Part shown: piece after piece, positions 18,055-46,100 of the stretch
How positions within the stretch are numbered: position 1 is the stretch's first letter
Layout: each line of letters starts with the position of its first letter
Source: a virus
Strand: one strand, 5' to 3'
Virus record (IMG/VR): IMGVR_UViG_3300030107_001040
Span: 37,656 to 101,655 of that record
DNA length: 64,000 nt
Position numbers and translations under genes: made by a program
The notes under the pieces: model-generated
Database searches by the model: none
The model's input: only the letters and a program-made list of their open reading frames with translations
Told to the model about the DNA's origin: nothing

Positions 18055-18108
18055 GATAGTGGCACATACTTCCACACAGAATGCTCTGAGTGGTATACCA
18101 TATAAATA
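18044..18108 (+). promoter_or_regulatory. Early promoter (dyad copy 3) overlapping a late promoter
   Basis: TGGTCA-N10-TGGCAC; TACCAT at 18096; TATAAATA at 18101-18108. Confidence 0.6.
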
Positions 18109-18109
18109 T

Positions 18110-18260
18110 GGGAAACAAAGGAGGTTTCTTTCTAGTCTGACAAGTAGGGTTCAATCATTTTGAATACGGAATACCAGCAATGGTACACTTCTTATATGAT
18201 TACTACAAGAAGCAGACACATGACGAAAGAGTAATGCACCGCCCCCTCTTTTTGTTTCTC
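18110..18260 (+). ncRNA. Candidate structured ncRNA 1
   Basis: 15-bp 5'/3' closing stem, an inner stem, three hairpins (one with a GCAA tetraloop) and loop-loop complementarity; no long ORF. Confidence 0.65.
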
Positions 18261-18354
18261 TCACCTTATCACATACGAGGAGATGGATGTGCCTCTCGGT
18301 TCGCAACCGAAGAAAGAACTAACATCCGCTAGCAATTTAAGGAGGTTACACGAG

Positions 18355-22172: not shown

Positions 22173-23405
22173 GTGACAACACTGAGACCACATCAGCAAC
22201 GTGCATACGATAAGATGAACACAGCAGTATGTGGTCAGGTTATTGTTCCTACTGGTGGTGGCAAGACTTATATAATGATACAGGACTGCATCAGGAGATT
22301 AAAGACTAGGCATGATGACAGAGTGATCGTGGTGGTGGCACCTCGTATATTATTAGCAAACCAGTTGAGCAGTGAGTTCACTGGTCTATTAGATGATGAT
22401 ATAAATGTATTACACGTGCATAGCGGAGAAACACATTTTGACAGCACGACTAATGCGGAGGAGGTAGCGCAGTGGGTAAGTGATAGGACTGGTAACAGTA
22501 TAATATTTACCACTTACCACTCCTTACCACGTATTGTCAAGAGTGCTATACAGATTGATACCATATATTTTGATGAAGCGCACAACGGATGCGGAAAGAA
22601 GTTTTTTGAGGGCATTTTGAATACTGCTGAATATGCGAAGAGAAGATTTTACTTTACTGCTACACCTCGTATAGGTAGAGGCACCAGCAAAGAACGTGGT
22701 ATGAATAATACTACTGTATGGGGTGAAGTGTTAGAGCAGGTTGAAGCACGTGAACTGATTAACAGTGGTGCTATACTTCCACCGAAGGTCACACCATTTG
22801 AGACTGATCGGACTCGTGATAAGATTAACGCTCACGAGGTTGACGCTAGTAACCTAAAGGACATCATTAAGCAGTTTGATTCTAATGCCAAGGTATTAGT
22901 AGCAGCACCGAGCACTAGGATACTATGGAACATGCTCACTAAGACTGATATTCTTGACTGGTTCAAAAAGCAGAATTATGACGTGATGCACATCACATCT
23001 AAGCATGGTGCCTACGTTAATGGCAAGAAGGTAGGAAGAGAATCATTTTTTGATACCTTGTCAGACTGGGGTAACAGCAACCGCAGATTTGTGGTATTCC
23101 ATTACAGCATATTGTCAGAGGGTATAAATGTACCAGGATTGACTCATACTGTATTATTGAGGAATTTACCTATTATTGAAATGGCACAAACCATAGGTAG
23201 AGTTATCAGAGTTCATCCTGAAGATAGGAAGGATGTAGAAGATGGTATCATACCAGCAGCGCAGTTCACTTTATACCGTAAAGGTTATGGTAGTGTTACT
23301 GTTCCCTTGACTGGTAAGTATGGTGCCAAGATCGCTCAAAGATTAGAGCGAGTGGTTACCGACATATTTGTAGAGGGAAGACCACCAACTGCCTACACAT
23401 CTTAG
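22173..23405 (+). CDS. SF2 DEAD/DEAH-like helicase (ResIII-like)
   Basis: 'LRPHQ', 'PTGGGKT', 'DEAH', 'TATP', 'ILSEGINVP', 'QTIGRVIR'. Confidence 0.9.
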   Translation: MTTLRPHQQRAYDKMNTAVCGQVIVPTGGGKTYIMIQDCIRRLKTRHDDRVIVVVAPRILLANQLSSEFTGLLDDDINVLHVHSGETHFDSTTNAEEVAQWVSDRTGNSIIFTTYHSLPRIVKSAIQIDTIYFDEAHNGCGKKFFEGILNTAEYAKRRFYFTATPRIGRGTSKERGMNNTTVWGEVLEQVEARELINSGAILPPKVTPFETDRTRDKINAHEVDASNLKDIIKQFDSNAKVLVAAPSTRILWNMLTKTDILDWFKKQNYDVMHITSKHGAYVNGKKVGRESFFDTLSDWGNSNRRFVVFHYSILSEGINVPGLTHTVLLRNLPIIEMAQTIGRVIRVHPEDRKDVEDGIIPAAQFTLYRKGYGSVTVPLTGKYGAKIAQRLERVVTDIFVEGRPPTAYTS

Positions 23406-23466
23406 GACAGTTTGCAAAGTGAACACATTTTCCCCCACTGTCCCCTTGCTTTGCTATTATATAAAT
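23404..23466 (+). promoter_or_regulatory. Early promoter (dyad copy 6)
   Basis: AGGACA-N10-TGAACA; TGcTATTAT with the hexamer at 23455. Confidence 0.6.
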
Positions 23467-23618
23467 GTTGAGGGATACGTGGTTCTACTGCCCAAAACTC
23501 ATTTGTGGGGTTATCCTACTAAGATATGAGGAGTAGGGGTTCAGGTGTAAGCGATTCCCAGTAGGTAAATTTGGTCTCTTGGGTGAAACCCATTGAAGTT
23601 AGACCCACTCTCTCAACA
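23466..23618 (+). ncRNA. Candidate structured ncRNA 2
   Basis: 10-bp closing stem TGTTGAGGGA/TCTCTCAACA, five inner helices and complementary loops; starts at the predicted TSS. Confidence 0.65.
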
Positions 23619-23757
23619 CCCCAAACCATGATCTTATTCAAGTGCATTACCAAATGACTGAAGAGTGTTACAAGTTGCTTTGCAACCCTACTCCGATCAT
23701 CAAGTACTATTTCTTGACTGGTATCGGATCTTATCAACCACGCAAGGAGGAAAAGAA

Positions 23758-23970
23758 ATGAAATCCGCAGTATTTCAAGTTCGCATCCAACTAGATGATG
23801 AGAACGATCCGATCAACCCAGTTCACTTATGCGAAGAGATTCAAGCATATTTGAACTCTTGGCACTCTCAACTGGACGAGTCCACTGACGAGTATCAGGA
23901 TGCTAGAGTTGTAGGATACAAGTTTGAATACGACAAGTTTCTACCATTCACTGCTCAGGAGGAATACTAA
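23758..23970 (+). CDS. Hypothetical protein
   Basis: ATG with SD AAGGAGG inside ORF 23665..23970. Confidence 0.65.
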   Translation: MKSAVFQVRIQLDDENDPINPVHLCEEIQAYLNSWHSQLDESTDEYQDARVVGYKFEYDKFLPFTAQEEY

Positions 23971-24128
23971 TGAAGGAATTCAGAATCGTTGCTTCACGTG
24001 TTACCAATTATGTTGCATACGTGGAAGCAGAGAACGAAGCAGAAGCAGAATTTCTTTCTAGTGATGTTGACTGGCAGTTTTTGGATGATGAGGACTACGA
24101 GGTCTACACAGTTGAGGAGGTTGAGTAA
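23970..24128 (+). CDS. Small acidic hypothetical protein (not in track)
   Basis: MKEFRIVASRV...VEAENEAEAE...; SD AGGAGG; TAATG coupling. Confidence 0.65.
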   Translation: MKEFRIVASRVTNYVAYVEAENEAEAEFLSSDVDWQFLDDEDYEVYTVEEVE

Positions 24129-24305
24129 ATGAAATTACATCAAGACTGGTCACAACGCTACATGAAAGACTGTCGTTTGACTTTTGAAGAGCATCACCTA
24201 AACAACGAGTGGTTTAACAAGATGCTCTACATGCTTAAGGATGATGGACAGTTATATGTCCCATTTCTTAAGAAATCGTTTAACAAGCGAGGTGAGGAAC
24301 TATGA
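24129..24305 (+). CDS. Hypothetical protein (not in track)
   Basis: 58 aa, MKLHQDWSQRY...; SD GAGGAGG. Confidence 0.6.
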   Translation: MKLHQDWSQRYMKDCRLTFEEHHLNNEWFNKMLYMLKDDGQLYVPFLKKSFNKRGEEL

Positions 24306-24475
24306 ACTGGAAACCAGTTGACAAGTATACAAGGTCAGGCAAGGATGGTAAACTGTTAAAGTGTCCCAAGTGTGAATCCATCCATAAGGTTTATCACTTT
24401 GCATGGTCAGCACTTGGTTGCAACCACTGTGGTAAATCATTTGAGAAAAACCTATGGTTAGTGGAGACAGCATAA
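24302..24475 (+). CDS. Small zinc-ribbon protein (not in track)
   Basis: CPKC...CNHC pairs; ATGA overlap. Confidence 0.7.
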   Translation: MNWKPVDKYTRSGKDGKLLKCPKCESIHKVYHFAWSALGCNHCGKSFEKNLWLVETA

Positions 24476-24476
24476 A

Positions 24477-24710
24477 ATGGCACTTATCATTACACCAGAT
24501 GACCCCAACCTGTATAAAAGTATGAGAACACCAGAAGAAATTCGCAGAAGGCAGGAATTATGCCTTGATCTCATTCAAGTATGTCAAGATGATTTGACTG
24601 TCCTTGAACAACTGGTAGATGACCACGTTTATGACCTGACGTTAGAGCAGGTCAAAGAATACGAGGAATTATGCACCAGTATTCTGTCTCATCCTGATTA
24701 TGTCAAGTGA
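24477..24710 (+). CDS. Hypothetical acidic protein
   Basis: 77-aa ORF; SD GGAG. Confidence 0.6.
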   Translation: MALIITPDDPNLYKSMRTPEEIRRRQELCLDLIQVCQDDLTVLEQLVDDHVYDLTLEQVKEYEELCTSILSHPDYVK

Positions 24711-43100: not shown

Positions 43101-46100
43101 TGCAGATACATTTAAGTTTGTTCTATTGAATGAACCAGAAGGTGCTGCTGATATTACACAAACATCTTATAGTACAAGTTCTGTTAAAGCAGTTGGTGCT
43201 ATATCAAATATTCGTATTGTTAATCCAGGTGGTTTTTACACTAAACTTCCTATTGTTACAGGTATTACCTCCACAAGGGTTATTGAAAGAGTTCAAATTG
43301 AAACACCAGGTACTGAATATGCTGTAGGAGAATACACTGGAGTTCCTATTGCAGGTGATGGCGAAGGTGGATTAGTTAGCATTACAGTTGCTGATGGAAC
43401 TGATGATGAGGGAACTGTAATTCCAGGTCAAATTAATAATGTTGTTGTTACTTCTCCAGGTAAAGGATATACTTCTGGAACAATTGATATTGAAGCTATA
43501 TCTGGTATATTAGGATCTGGATTAACTGGATCTGGTGCTGTATTGAATGTTATTATTCCTTCAAATGGAACAGAAGCATCTATCTTTACTCAGGGGACAA
43601 GCGTTGGAAAAATCAAGAAACTTAAGAATAATAACTTTGGATATGATTATCCTCATGACTATACTTTACGTCCTGAAATTACGTTCCCAATTAACGCACA
43701 ACTCACATCAACATCCATTCTAGACAGTATTACAATTACTGACCCAGGTTCTGGATATTCACAAGCACCTGCTGTTGTAATTACAGGTGGTGGTGGATCT
43801 GGTGCTCTAGCTGAGGCAACAATTAGGAACGGTAGATTAGATCAGGTGATTGTTAAGGATCCTGGTGCTGGATATTCATCTACACCAACTGTTTCCTTAA
43901 GATCTTCCTTTAACTATGTTATTAACATTGACTTAGGATTACTACAATTTGCCTTCCCTCATGGTATTGCAAATGGATCTGCTATAACATTAAATGTAGT
44001 TGATACTGGATCTGGTGCTGAATTCCCACTTGCTGCTGGTGCTACTGGTCGTCTTAACGGAACAACAACTTATTATGCTATTACTGGAACAGCAAATTCA
44101 TTAGAAAATGATCAATTAAAAGTAGCGATTACTGCTGCAAACGCTGAATTGGGTGATGCTTTAACATTCACCAATGCTGGAACAGGTCGTCAACAGGTAT
44201 TGACAGAATCATTTGGTGGTGGTGCTTCTGCTAATGTTATCACTTCTACCTTCTTAGAAGGAGAACTTGTTTATCAAGGTGATTCACTTGCTTCTGCAAC
44301 TGCAACTGGATACGTTTCAACTAATGAAGGTTGGCAAGTTGGACCTAGAGTTCTTAAGATTGTTGATTATACAGGAACATTTGCAGAGACTCAGAAATTA
44401 ACTGGTGTTATCTCTAAGTCTTCAGGTACTATTAGTGATCTAAACATCGCTAAAGGTGTTCTAGAAATTGGATCTATCACTAAGACTACTGGTCAATTCA
44501 TTGATGACGTTGGTAAACCTTCCGAAATTATTCAGAAGATTCAAGATAGTTACTATTATCAGGACTTCTCCTATGCTGTTAAGTCTGCTGTTTCTATTAG
44601 TGATTGGAAAGAGATTTTAATTAAGAACGTTCATCCTGCATCATTTAAGGTATTTGGTGAGTTGAACCTTTCAGATTATGGTTCAATTCCAAACAAAGAG
44701 ACTGATTTCCAACTTACAAAGTCTGTTGAACTTGCAAGAGAAGCAATTGTTCCCAATATACAGAGTTTTGCTCTAGTTGAACCAATTTACTCAGAATTTA
44801 ATAATACTGAAGTTCTGTTCCGTCAGAAGAGATTAACGTCTTCTGAGAACATTCTAACTTCTGTTGTACAAAGATTAGATGATATTTCTTCCTTATTTGA
44901 TGGTGAAAGAATATCATTCCCTCTACAAGTTAATCAAACTAACGTTGTTGCTAATGCCAATCAGTTAATGATTGTTTTGAATGGTGTTGTTCAAAACCCA
45001 GGAACATCATTCAGTATTCAAGGTGATTCTGTTGTATTCAGTGAACCACCTCAACCACCAGCAAGTGTTAAGTATGTAAACATAACAATTTCTCAACAAG
45101 CAACTAAGACTAACACATTTACTAATATTAGCGGTATCTTCCCTAGTGTTGGTAATGCTTTAGTTGGAACAGTTTCTGGTGCTAGATTAACCGTAACTTC
45201 TGTTGTTGGTAACGTAATTGATGGTTTCATTACAGAAGGAACCTTTATAATAGGTGAAAACGTAACTGTTGGTGCTACTGGATTTAATGCTAATATTGCG
45301 ACTCAAAGTGATGTTTCTAACATTGGATTGTTCCAGTACGGTGAGACAGTTACTAACTTAACTTCAGATACTGCAAAAGTTGAGCAAATCAACTTGGCAA
45401 CTGGTCAAGAAACACCTTTGGCACAACTTCGTTACACAATTGGTCCATCTACAACTGATTTTGAAGTTGTTGCATATAAGACAGATAATAGTGCTGCAGA
45501 TGCTGTAGTTCCTGTTGGAACATTCACTGCAACTAAGAAGTATCAGTTTGGATCTGAAATTTTCCTAGTTAACAGTATCACACAGGGTTCTGACTCTACA
45601 ACTTTAAATGTTACAAGAGCACAAGATGGAACTGCTGCTGTTTCTCAGCAAGAAGATCTTCCTGTTTATGGAACAGATATTAGTGTTACTACTGCTCTAA
45701 CATTAAGTAAGACTGCTGGTACTTACCAATCAACTCCTGGTTTATTTGATATTCAGTTAAATGATTATATTATCGGTGCTAAATCTGGGGTAGTAGCAAA
45801 AGTTACTGCTACTGCTGTATACACAGATCCTATTACTAATGAAGCAATTAGTCAGGTTAATATATCTGCAGGTTCATCCTTCTTTGGTCTATTATTCAAC
45901 AGAATTGCCTCTCAGACTTATCCAAACCAAGTCTTAGATGATATTTCTAAGTCTCAGGTAAGTATCGTTAAGTTTACTGATACTAATATTACTGATGGTC
46001 TTTCTAGCACAGCATTTAACGCAGAATTCCCTGCCAATGAAAGAATTAACAATTATGTAGTTCCATATGATAATGCAACTGGTGCATTTGCAGAAAACGA

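What the first reader, a model, noticed from the sequence alone, without database searches (positions are those of the whole stretch)
23466..23618. Structured ~150-nt RNA candidate 2 shares architecture and a TCAT/ATGA kissing core with RNA 1
Seen: closing stem TGTTGAGGGA (23466-75)/TCTCTCAACA (23609-18). CTACTG (23485-90)/CAGTAG (23559-64) encloses hairpins CCCA/TGGG and CCTACT/AGTAGG, whose loops are complementary: CTCAT (23498-502) with ATGAG (23526-30). A 3' arm GGTCT/AGACC carries TGGG-tgaaa-CCCA. Like RNA 1 it is about 150 nt, starts just after 'TATAAAT' behind the dyad promoter, and has a closed end, an inner multibranch domain, a 3' arm and a TCAT/ATGA loop-loop core, despite little primary similarity. 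Inference: two diverged members of one early-expressed phage RNA class, possibly an RNA-based host-takeover or anti-defence system.
Basis: partly seen in the sequence, partly recalled or inferred. Interest (0 to 1): 0.78.

Follow-up and report, generated by a model that had tools for sequence, protein, structure and literature searches.

The report
Uncatalogued structured RNA of ocean cyanophages
The flagged 151 bases encode a real, strongly conserved folded RNA made at the start of an early transcript of a T4-like virus of marine cyanobacteria; it belongs to a large family that no RNA database holds and whose job is unknown, but it is not a diverged twin of "RNA 1" and has no kissing-loop core.

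Summary
Window 23467-23617 (+) is one copy of a conserved structured RNA family that I call R1. Exact-motif scans found it in more than 120 marine viral contigs, in Prochlorococcus phages P-SSM2 and P-SSM5, and in four single-cell virus records.

**Structure.** A covariance model built from 26 short homologs scores the window at 101 bits (E 5e-26). Across 94 distinct sequences, 24 of 37 base pairs show compensatory changes. The fold is a closing helix P1/P1b, a three-way junction, an arm P2, and an arm P4/P4b. P2 carries a variable P3 arm plus an almost invariant GGUGUAAGCGAUUCC segment.

The closing stem, CTACTG/CAGTAG and the 3' arm are right. Two inner hairpins are wrong. CTCAT/ATGAG is an ordinary nested helix in a lineage-specific insert, not a kissing core.

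**RNA 1.** It is not homologous to R1. It is a different module, which I call module A. In other phages the two are physically nested, in both orders.

**Distribution.**
- Rfam 15 and ARAGORN find nothing.
- R1 is phage-restricted and usually single-copy.
- It is absent from five other complete cyanomyovirus genomes.
- In about half of contexts it starts at the +1 of an extended -10 promoter.

**Function.** Unknown. I favour an autonomous binding RNA over a gene-specific switch.

Earlier agents of this scan reported the same family on other genomes.

The parts
23405..23443 (+). Dyad GGACAGT (23405-11) / ACTGTCC (23437-43) upstream of the promoter. It looks like an operator or terminator. It is not part of the RNA.
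   Evidence: Read directly from the sequence. Weak similarity to the same position in L116 and L117 only.
23452..23460 (+). Extended -10 promoter element TGCTATTAT with no recognisable -35 box. The predicted start is G23467, 7 nt after the box.
   Evidence: Sequence. The same TGnTAnnnT box lies 5-9 nt before the first P1 base in 37 of 100 distinct upstream contexts, and a plain -10-like box in 19 more. The generic sigma-70 scan does not call it. The transcription start is inferred, not shown.
23467..23617 (+). R1 RNA, whole element.
   Evidence: Covariance model R1: 101.2 bits, E 5e-26, model positions 1-119; 88.6 bits with filters off. It is the single copy in the 101.7-kb contig.
23467..23481 (+). 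P1 5' strand (23467-75), bulge UAC (23476-78), P1b 5' strand GUG (23479-81). They pair with 23606-17.
   Evidence: All 9 P1 pairs and 2 of 3 P1b pairs show compensatory changes.
23485..23490 (+). P2 5' strand CUACUG, pairing with CAGUAG at 23559-64. It is preceded by junction GUU(C) at 23482-84.
   Evidence: 6 of 6 pairs have changes on both sides across 94 distinct sequences.
23491..23538 (+). P3 arm. CCC 23491-93 pairs with GGG 23536-38. Internal loop AAAA / GAGUA. Helix P3a is CUCAU 23498-502 / AUGAG 23526-30. Hairpin GUGGG 23505-09 / CCUAC 23515-19, with a UAAGAU tail at 23520-25. This is the variable expansion site of the family.
   Evidence: Across the family this arm measures 13 to 230 nt, with 72 distinct versions. 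Only L022 shares this version. The isolated arm folds this way. The GUGGGGUUAUCCUACUAAGAU sub-module recurs elsewhere, flanked by different complementary sequences, and once in P-SSM7.
23539..23558 (+). Conserved core GUUCA-GGUGUAAGCGAUUCC. The junction is followed by an almost invariant segment that is predicted, but not proven, to form a small hairpin.
   Evidence: Invariant in the core-selected set. In a scan anchored elsewhere, only positions in GUUCA (GUACA, GUGCA, GUUUA) and one U-to-C change vary.
23565..23572 (+). Junction strand GUAAAUUU between P2 and P4. It contains the palindrome AAAUUU.
   Evidence: UAAAUUU is invariant in alignment A2; the leading G varies.
23573..23605 (+). P4 (GGUCU 23573-77 / AGACC 23601-05) enclosing P4b (UGGGU 23580-84, loop GAA 23585-87, ACCCA 23588-92).
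   Evidence: 3 of 5 P4 pairs and the outer P4b pair covary. GGUGAAACC is invariant.
23606..23617 (+). 3' strands of P1b (CAC, 23606-08) and P1 (23609-17).
23618..23757 (+). 140-nt spacer that is not conserved, with AAGGAGG at 23744-50.
   Evidence: One weak match (L097) among the fetched R1-bearing loci, and only a weak, likely chance match to S-B28 among isolates.
23758..23970 (+). First ORF of the transcription unit: 70 aa, acidic, no known family examined.
   Evidence: Translation and ORF list.

Best explanation
**What it is.** The stretch is one copy of an uncatalogued structured-RNA family, called R1 here, carried as an accessory and usually single-copy element by some marine T4-like cyanomyoviruses.

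**Fold.**
- A closing helix P1/P1b leads to a three-way junction.
- Arm P2 carries an expandable P3 arm and an almost invariant 15-nt segment, GGUGUAAGCGAUUCC.
- Arm P4/P4b is capped by an invariant GGU-GAA-ACC.
- The junction strands are GUUC and GUAAAUUU.

**Transcription (inferred).** In this phage the RNA is transcribed by the host polymerase from an extended -10 promoter, so that the first helix begins at +1 of an early transcript.

**Mechanism I consider most likely (inferred, about 45-50%).** R1 works as an autonomous, independently folding RNA domain. Its product is the RNA itself. It presents its invariant unpaired nucleotides to one conserved partner early in infection. That partner could be a host or phage protein, another RNA, or possibly a small ligand. 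It is not a switch dedicated to the gene behind it.

**Relation to RNA 1.** RNA 1 is not a paralogue. It is a second, different module of the same exchangeable toolkit. In this phage the two are made from separate promoters 5.3 kb apart. In others they are fused by nesting.

**Confidence split.** That this is a real, selected RNA structure I hold at more than 0.95. The confidence given below is for the mechanism.
For: **Shown: the structure is real**
- MAFFT alignment of 26 short homologs, made independently of any structure: 14 of 37 pairs have compensatory changes.
- 94 distinct sequences: 95.4% of cells are paired against 83.8% in shuffles and 36-56% when partners are slid. 24 of 37 pairs change on both sides. 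0 of 500 shuffles reach the observed values.
- G-U pairs are frequent, and one is invariant, so the + strand is the RNA strand.

**Shown: the unpaired core is conserved without ascertainment bias**
- A scan anchored on UAAAUUUGG...GGUGAAACC recovers about 20 further copies lacking the exact core string. Their AGGUG(U/C)AAGCGAUUCC is still intact.
- R1 is 83-90% identical to P-SSM2 and single-cell virus records. The adjacent helicase gene is only 62-67% identical to any isolate.

**Shown: points favouring an autonomous RNA**
- There is one copy per genome: in this contig, in P-SSM2 (252 kb), in a 100%-complete 202-kb genome and in three other partial contigs.
- Flanking genes differ widely. There are 68 flanking-ORF clusters, and the helicase lies upstream here but downstream elsewhere.
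- I saw no common terminator or SD-sequestering platform after P1 in the flanks examined. What follows P1 is sometimes an ORF, sometimes other closed-end modules, and here a non-conserved spacer.
- R1 is nested inside module A in 7 loci. Module A, or its insert, sits inside R1's P3 arm in others. So only co-presence and independent folding are kept.
- In some loci the unit is a promoter, a roughly 330-490-nt chain of structured modules, a 37-aa ORF and a terminator.

**Shown: phage-restricted**
- Only one hit among 185,579 species genomes, on a 1.9-kb contig of an archaeal MAG.
Against: - No expression data were available, so transcript ends, abundance and stability are unknown.
- In at least 30 of about 125 loci an ATG-initiated ORF of 40 codons or more starts within roughly 5-15 nt of R1's 3' end. 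That fits a cis-acting leader as well.
- About half of the copies begin exactly at a predicted +1. That also fits a 5'-end stabiliser.
- A three-way junction with invariant junction nucleotides, a variable peripheral arm and a closing P1 is also the typical look of a riboswitch aptamer.
- No partner has been identified.
- R1 is missing from five complete cyanomyovirus genomes, so whatever it does is dispensable for the group.
Confidence: 0.45

Rival explanations
1. Cis-regulatory leader, either a new riboswitch or a protein-responsive leader. R1 would be an aptamer that senses a metabolite or protein in the infected cell and tunes expression of the early genes behind it.
For: - The architecture is typical of aptamers: covarying P1, invariant junctions and a variable peripheral arm.
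- It lies in a 5' leader, often at +1.
- In at least 30 of about 125 loci an ORF of 40 codons or more starts a few nt after P1.
- An earlier, unchecked note of this scan reports a glutamine riboswitch elsewhere in this same genome.
Against: - Downstream genes are not consistent.
- I saw no conserved terminator, anti-terminator or start-site-sequestering partner for the P1 3' strand. Downstream sequence falls into unrelated classes, and in this window it is a 140-nt spacer that is not conserved.
- R1 occurs nested inside another RNA's loop.
Confidence: 0.2
2. 5' stabiliser or processing element. A 5'-terminal helix with no overhang shields early transcripts from 5'-end-dependent host RNases, or marks a processing site.
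For: - In 37-56 of 100 contexts P1 begins at the predicted +1.
- The leaders are long and densely structured.
Against: - 44 of 100 contexts have no promoter box; there R1 is internal or nested.
- Protection needs only a stem. It does not need about 50 invariant nucleotides and two junctions.
- There is a single copy per genome, while many other early transcripts lack it.
Confidence: 0.12
3. put-like processive antitermination RNA. The nascent R1 would bind the host RNA polymerase and modify elongation of the early transcript.
For: It lies immediately downstream of early promoters in about half of contexts. RNA 1 is similarly placed behind its own promoter. This parallels putL and putR of phage HK022, which I cite from my own knowledge.
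Against: - It is much larger and more complex than put RNAs.
- It is often far from any promoter or nested.
- No terminators consistently lie downstream within the unit. The scan of 23300-24600 finds one weak candidate, no more than chance gives.
Confidence: 0.05
4. Self-cleaving or otherwise catalytic RNA that processes the module chain.
For: The invariant unpaired nucleotides and multi-junction fold are compatible with catalysis. The modules occur in chains that might need separating.
Against: - No match to any ribozyme family in Rfam, even at E up to 10.
- The junction strands (GUUC, GUAAAUUU, and none between P4 and P1b) do not fit the hammerhead core as I recall it. The end-to-end P1 does not fit the HDV-like topology as I recall it.
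Confidence: 0.05
5. One reading: RNA 1 and RNA 2 are two diverged members of one RNA class built around a TCAT/ATGA loop-loop kissing core.
For: Both are about 150 nt, have closed ends and lie behind early promoters. Both contain a UCAU/AUGA complementarity.
Against: - The R1 model gives no hit on RNA 1.
- The signature motifs differ.
- The UCAU/AUGA pairs are nested helices in non-homologous inserts. Most family members lack them: 37 instances (one sequence) plus nine other short versions have only a 13-19-nt P3 hairpin.
Confidence: 0.03

Closest known systems
manA (RF01745), wcaG (RF01761) and PhotoRC-II (RF01717) RNA motifs of T4-like cyanophages (Weinberg et al. 2010, PMC2864571)
   Same: These are orphan, covariation-supported structured RNAs. 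They are found almost only in marine metagenomes and T4-like cyanophages, in intergenic or leader positions, with function still unproven.
   Different: There is no sequence or structure match. Rfam 15 gives nothing at the gathering threshold over the whole window, and nothing at E up to 10 over the element or over the compact P-SSM2 copy. The wcaG model finds nothing in the 101.7-kb contig, but it also hit none of its control genomes, so that run shows little. R1 has its own fold and signature strings.
PeSL (promoter-early stem-loop) cassettes of T4-type phage hyperplastic regions (Arbiol et al. 2010, PMC2839356)
   Same: Both are small non-coding cassettes with a strong sigma-70-like early promoter, lying between small accessory genes in shuffled regions. 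Neighbouring genes are exchanged around them.
   Different: PeSLs are a promoter plus a terminator stem-loop, and are thought to act as DNA recombination and regulation sites. R1 is a 113-330-nt transcribed RNA. It has two junctions, about 50 invariant nucleotides and strand-specific G-U pairs. It is single-copy per genome rather than repeated.
putL/putR antitermination RNAs of phage HK022 (own knowledge, not checked in a paper here)
   Same: Two structured RNAs, each encoded just downstream of an early promoter and acting as RNA.
   Different: put RNAs are about 70 nt with two stem-loops, and the two are homologous to each other. R1 and RNA 1 are larger, are not homologous, and are often not adjacent to a promoter.
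Riboswitch aptamers with three-way junctions, for example purine or TPP (own knowledge)
   Same: A closing P1, conserved junction nucleotides, covarying arms and a variable peripheral stem.
   Different: No Rfam match, no consistent regulated gene set, and no expression platform seen.
Module A, which is RNA 1 of this window (18108-18265)
   Same: The same phages, the same early-leader setting and closed ends. It is physically nested with R1 in related phages.
   Different: The fold and signature differ: stem-AC-[slot]-AGAAG-stem-ACAUGA. It is not detected by the R1 model.

Membership tests
   101.2 bits, E 5e-26, model positions 1-119 at 23467-23617.
   They lie at 23543-58, 23566-74 and 23582-90.
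   With filters off, the R1 model gives no + strand hit in 18100-18270. The only nearby hit is noise on the minus strand (7.8 bits, E 6). RNA 1 carries the module A signature instead.
Loop-loop (kissing) complex | Complementary bases lie in the loops of two separate hairpins, and the pairing is conserved across the family | tested here: not met
   CUCAU/AUGAG form a nested helix that encloses one hairpin. The insert holding them occurs in only 2 of 72 P3 versions.
Rfam families, including manA, wcaG, glnA, PhotoRC-II, known ribozymes and 6S | A score at or near the family's gathering threshold | tested here: not met
   No hit at gathering over the window or over 11 related loci. At E up to 10 there are only two microRNA chance hits, and none on the compact P-SSM2 copy.
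tRNA / tmRNA | Cloverleaf or tmRNA features recognised by ARAGORN | tested here: not met
   0 genes in the window and in 15 related loci.
Riboswitch | A conserved aptamer with covarying helices in a 5' leader | tested here: met
Riboswitch | A consistent set of downstream genes and a recognisable expression platform | tested here: not met
   The downstream ORFs fall into many unrelated clusters. No terminator or sequestering helix was seen after P1.
Riboswitch | Specific ligand binding | not testable with these tools
   This needs in-line probing or ITC.
PeSL cassette | A strong early promoter combined with a terminator stem-loop, repeated many times per genome | tested here: inconclusive
   A promoter box is present. 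Upstream terminator-like GGGGG-T runs occur in many loci. But R1 itself is single-copy and transcribed.
Protein-coding sequence | A conserved reading frame | tested here: not met
   P3 length varies from 13 to 230 nt without regard to frame. Changes are compensatory in helices. Only 36-aa and 72-aa chance ORFs overlap the element.

The most novel reading that the evidence does not exclude
R1 is the binding core of a new class of phage 'takeover' RNA. On this reading it is an early-made, independently folding module that captures one specific host or phage factor, or a metabolite, which would make it a new riboswitch class. It would be one piece of a set of mix-and-match RNA modules, including module A and an H-type pseudoknot module, that ocean cyanophages recombine and nest like protein domains.
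Probability: 0.25. Interest if true: 0.85.

Novelty: new variant of a known kind. Interest (0 to 1): 0.6.

Why it matters
T4-like cyanophages infect Prochlorococcus and Synechococcus, which are major primary producers in the ocean (own knowledge).

**Why this RNA stands out**
- It is a complex RNA fold with about 50 near-invariant nucleotides.
- It is more conserved than the neighbouring helicase gene.
- It is present in over a hundred environmental phage contigs.
- It is made, as inferred, at the very start of infection.

An RNA with these properties very likely has a specific molecular partner. Identifying that partner would open an RNA-level layer of phage-host interaction that is unknown for this group.

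**Evolutionary interest**
- R1 sits inside module A in some phages and module A sits inside R1 in others.
- This reciprocal nesting suggests that structured RNAs can evolve by domain shuffling much as proteins do.

**A route to experiments**
- P-SSM2 and P-SSM5 are cultured phages that carry the compact 120-nt version.
- The question is therefore directly testable.

Tried and rejected
**Database and catalogue checks**
- Rfam 15 gave nothing useful at the gathering and E-value thresholds, on the window, on the element, on P-SSM2's compact copy and on 11 related loci.
- ARAGORN found nothing.
- I searched papers on cyanophage structured RNAs. I found only Weinberg 2010 (manA, wcaG, PhotoRC-II) and general catalogues.
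- Fremin et al. 2023 (PMC10690425) lists 8,495 unnamed candidates from IMG/VR. Its supplementary models are not held, so I could not check whether R1 is among them.
- Two 2026 preprints on intergenic element discovery do not mention cyanophages.

- Thermodynamic stability: z = -0.64 on the + strand and -1.10 on the minus strand. It is not informative.
- The R1 model against the whole window with filters off, looking for a second copy or RNA 1: only the element itself is found.
- The kissing-loop model was rejected.
- Coding potential was rejected.

**Distribution checks**
- A host-derived origin: the R1 signature occurs once in 185,579 species genomes, on a 1.9-kb contig of an archaeal MAG that is probably mis-binned phage DNA.
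- Divergent copies in P-SSM7, MbCM1, P-SSM4, S-SSM5 and S-RIM8: none at E up to 1. The same tool finds P-SSM2's copy at 139 bits.

**Steps that could not be run or gave nothing**
- The generic sigma-70 scan does not call the promoter, because there is no -35 box.
- A resemblance between R1's UAAAUUU and GUGUAAG and the T4 RegA SELEX consensus is recalled from memory only. I did not test it and do not use it as evidence.

Full report
**Setting.** The window is part of a 101.7-kb uncultivated-virus contig of a T4-like cyanomyovirus.
- Its helicase region matches Prochlorococcus and Synechococcus myoviruses at 62-67% nucleotide identity.
- The finding lies in a 352-nt gap. Upstream is a UvsW-type helicase ORF (22173-23405). 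Downstream is a run of small same-strand ORFs, the first at 23758-23970.

**Checking the observation.**
- Folding the 153 nt alone gives an energy no better than shuffles: z = -0.64 on the + strand and -1.10 on the minus strand. On its own, the sequence proves nothing.
- Rfam 15 finds nothing at the gathering threshold. At E up to 10 it finds only two chance microRNA hits.
- ARAGORN finds no tRNA or tmRNA.

**Relatives.** A blastn search of 50,697 phage records found unannotated non-coding matches at 81-90% identity. They lie in Prochlorococcus phages P-SSM2 and P-SSM5 and in four single-cell 'marine virus' records.
- Aligning them showed an invariant core, a variable middle and visibly compensating stems.
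- From these I extracted 91 distinct elements of 106-331 nt.

**Structure.** The 26 shortest versions (113-120 nt) were aligned by MAFFT without reference to structure.
- RNAalifold predicts 37 pairs, and 14 of them have compensatory double changes.
- A covariance model, R1, was built from this alignment. It recovers 101 matches in 100 sources, including the window at 101.2 bits and E 5e-26.
- On 94 distinct sequences, 95.4% of cells are paired. Shuffles give 83.8%, and slid partners give 36-56%.
- 24 of 37 pairs change on both sides. No shuffle out of 500 reaches any observed measure.
- This alignment is fitted to the model, but the independent MAFFT alignment tells the same story.
- G-U pairs are common, and one is invariant, so the RNA is the + strand.

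**The fold in window coordinates.**
- P1: 23467-75 / 23609-17.
- Bulge: UAC.
- P1b: 23479-81 / 23606-08.
- Junction: GUU(C).
- P2: 23485-90 / 23559-64.
- P3, inside P2: 23491-93 / 23536-38, with its insert.
- Junction GUUCA, then the segment GGUGUAAGCGAUUCC (23544-58).
- Junction GUAAAUUU: 23565-72.
- P4: 23573-77 / 23601-05.
- P4b: 23580-84 / 23588-92, with loop GAA.

**Is the invariant core an artefact of how I fished?** To check, I ran a second scan anchored on UAAAUUUGG...GGUGAAACC.
- It returned the same loci plus about 20 copies without the exact core string, and about ten coding false positives.
- In those 20 copies only the GUUCA junction varies (GUACA, GUGCA, GUUUA), plus one U-to-C change. 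AGGUG(U/C)AAGCGAUUCC stays intact.
- The conservation is therefore real.

**The P3 arm and the 'kissing core'.** P3 is the family's expansion site. It has 72 distinct versions of 13-230 nt.
- The commonest version is an 18-nt hairpin, CCCC-GAUUAAGUUU-GGGG (37 instances).
- Middle-sized versions share CCC-GAA(A/C)...(N)AGUA-GGG. This has the strand arrangement of a loop E / sarcin-ricin-type internal loop. That identification is my inference from general knowledge of the motif, and it is not tested.
- The window has the variant AAA(A)...GAGUA.
- Next to this loop there is always a helix whose sequence differs between insert types: CUCAU/AUGAG here and in L022, CAUCA/UGAUG elsewhere, GCACAAG/CUUGU.. 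in others.
- So CTCAT/ATGAG is a nested helix, P3a. The isolated arm folds exactly that way, as does the whole-sequence MFE.

**RNA 1 versus RNA 2.** With filters off, the R1 model finds nothing at 18108-18265. There is one R1 per contig. RNA 1 is nevertheless real.
- Its two ends (18108-44 and 18208-65) are conserved in many loci, while its centre (18146-18211) is a separate module.
- A motif search defines 'module A': a 5-bp stem, then AC, then a slot of 2-273 nt, then AGAAG, the stem partner and ACAUGA.
- It has 67 instances and nine compensatory stem variants. The search required perfect pairing, so this count is partly ascertained.
- The links between the two RNAs are physical rather than homologous.
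- RNA 1's central module (GGGUUCAAUCAUUUUGG...UAUAUGAUUACU) sits inside R1's P3 arm in L002, L052, L010 and others.
- The module A core sits inside R1's P3 arm in the long insert types.
- A complete R1 fills module A's slot in seven loci.
- The 'TCAT/ATGA' shared by the two RNAs lies in unrelated inserts and is a short coincidence.

**Context.**
- Of 100 distinct upstream contexts, 37 have an extended -10 box (TGnTAnnnT) ending 5-9 nt before P1. Another 19 have a plain -10-like box. The remaining 44 have none, and there R1 follows other modules or is nested.
- In the window, TGCTATTAT (23452-60) places +1 at about G23467. This is inferred; the generic promoter scan misses it because there is no -35 box.
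- Flanking ORFs fall into 68 clusters in shuffled order. They include a DNA methyltransferase, PSSM2_070-like proteins and the helicase. The helicase lies upstream here and downstream in other loci.
- What follows P1 varies. In at least 30 of about 125 loci an ORF of 40 codons or more starts within a few nt.
- In 27 cases a covarying H-type pseudoknot module follows. Other closed-end modules follow elsewhere. In the window a 140-nt spacer follows that is not conserved.
- Some units are a promoter, a roughly 330-490-nt chain of RNA modules, a 37-aa ORF and a terminator.

**Distribution.**
- R1 occurs once in P-SSM2 (252 kb), once in a 100%-complete 202-kb genome, and once in three other large contigs. 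One locus has two copies.
- It is absent at E up to 1 from the complete genomes of P-SSM7, MbCM1, P-SSM4, S-SSM5 and S-RIM8.
- Its signature occurs once in 185,579 bacterial and archaeal species genomes. That hit is on a 1.9-kb contig of a Poseidoniales MAG and is probably mis-binned phage DNA.
- R1 is thus a phage-specific, accessory and usually single-copy RNA gene.

**Mechanism.** Nothing here shows function. I weigh the options as follows.

| Reading | Weight | Main reasons |
|---|---|---|
| Autonomous binding module | about 0.45 | Single copy; extreme conservation of unpaired bases; inconsistent neighbours; no expression platform seen; nesting in either order, so only co-presence and independent folding are kept |
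| Riboswitch-like or protein-responsive leader | about 0.2 | Aptamer-like architecture; a quarter of copies abut an ORF |
| 5' stabiliser | about 0.12 | The +1 geometry fits, but the complexity and the internal copies do not |
| put-like antitermination | about 0.05 | No positive evidence |
| Ribozyme | about 0.05 | No positive evidence |

Whether a discrete RNA accumulates is therefore the key unknown.

**Prior knowledge.**
- The known cyanophage RNA motifs (manA, wcaG, PhotoRC-II; Weinberg et al. 2010, PMC2864571) do not match R1.
- PeSL cassettes (Arbiol et al. 2010, PMC2839356) share the promoter-cassette setting but are repeated promoter/terminator elements, not complex RNAs.
- A catalogue of 8,495 unnamed candidates from IMG/VR exists (PMC10690425). 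I could not check it because its supplements are not held.
- Earlier agents of this scan described the same family and the swap-and-nest behaviour on other genomes. Their notes agree with what I derived independently, but they are not independent evidence.

**Verdict.** The function is open and directly testable in P-SSM2.

Noticed in passing
window 18108-18265: RNA 1 is a member of a second conserved structured family, module A. Its pattern is stem-AC-[slot]-AGAAG-stem-ACAUGA. I found 67 instances with nine compensatory variants of the inner 5-bp stem, and the outer stem also covaries. Its 66-nt slot holds a separate module that elsewhere sits in R1's P3 arm.
   Followed up: partly
window 18275-18339: GAGGAG + ATG + 15 codons (MDVPLGSQPKKELTS) is shared at 83-100% nucleotide identity (53-65 nt matches) at the head of different ORFs, including PSSM2_070-like proteins. 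It looks like an exchangeable translation-start cassette or an RNA element overlapping the start.
   Followed up: partly
L064 about 2290-2350 (and 26 other instances; not in the window): An H-type pseudoknot module directly abuts R1's 3' end: CUGCUCUAAUCU-CCUU-GUAGUUUC-A-GGAUUAGGGGC-GAUAG-GAAACUAC. Both stems covary: UAAUC/GAUUA, CAACC/GGUUG, CUAGU/ACUAG, and GUAG/CUAC versus GUGG/CCAC.
   Followed up: partly
R1-bearing loci, 1.1 Mb in all: GTAAGTCC occurs 64 times on the sense strand and 11 times on the antisense strand. Most copies lie at the 3' edge of small hairpin modules in the leaders. R1's invariant GGUGUAAGCGAUUCC resembles it. It may be a shared recognition motif.
   Followed up: no
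L006, reverse strand, about 300 nt after R1: A T-arm-like hairpin, GUGGUUCAAUUCCAC, lies inside a further structured leader segment. Neither ARAGORN nor Rfam calls anything there.
   Followed up: no
L006, L064, L104 (and P-SSM2 PSSM2_071): Several module chains end in a 37-aa acidic ORF (MSPNFAEFLLDT...GGTDL) followed by a strong terminator and the next promoter. The untranslated structured leader is several times longer than the ORF.
   Followed up: no
L159 1501-1522 (P-SSM7 43768-43789): The 22-nt sub-module UUGUGGGGUUAUCCUACUAAGA from the window's P3 insert occurs at 100% identity in a non-coding gap of P-SSM7, a phage that lacks R1.
   Followed up: no
L158 (CAZRCY010000231.1, 1.9 kb): This is the only match of the R1 signature in 185,579 species genomes. 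It lies on a short contig binned to a Poseidoniales archaeon MAG, and is probably mis-binned cyanophage DNA.
   Followed up: no
window 34168-57153: A single 7,661-aa ORF contains many diverged internal repeats of about 85-aa periodicity (repeat families D1-D8 at 47.4-53 kb).
   Followed up: no
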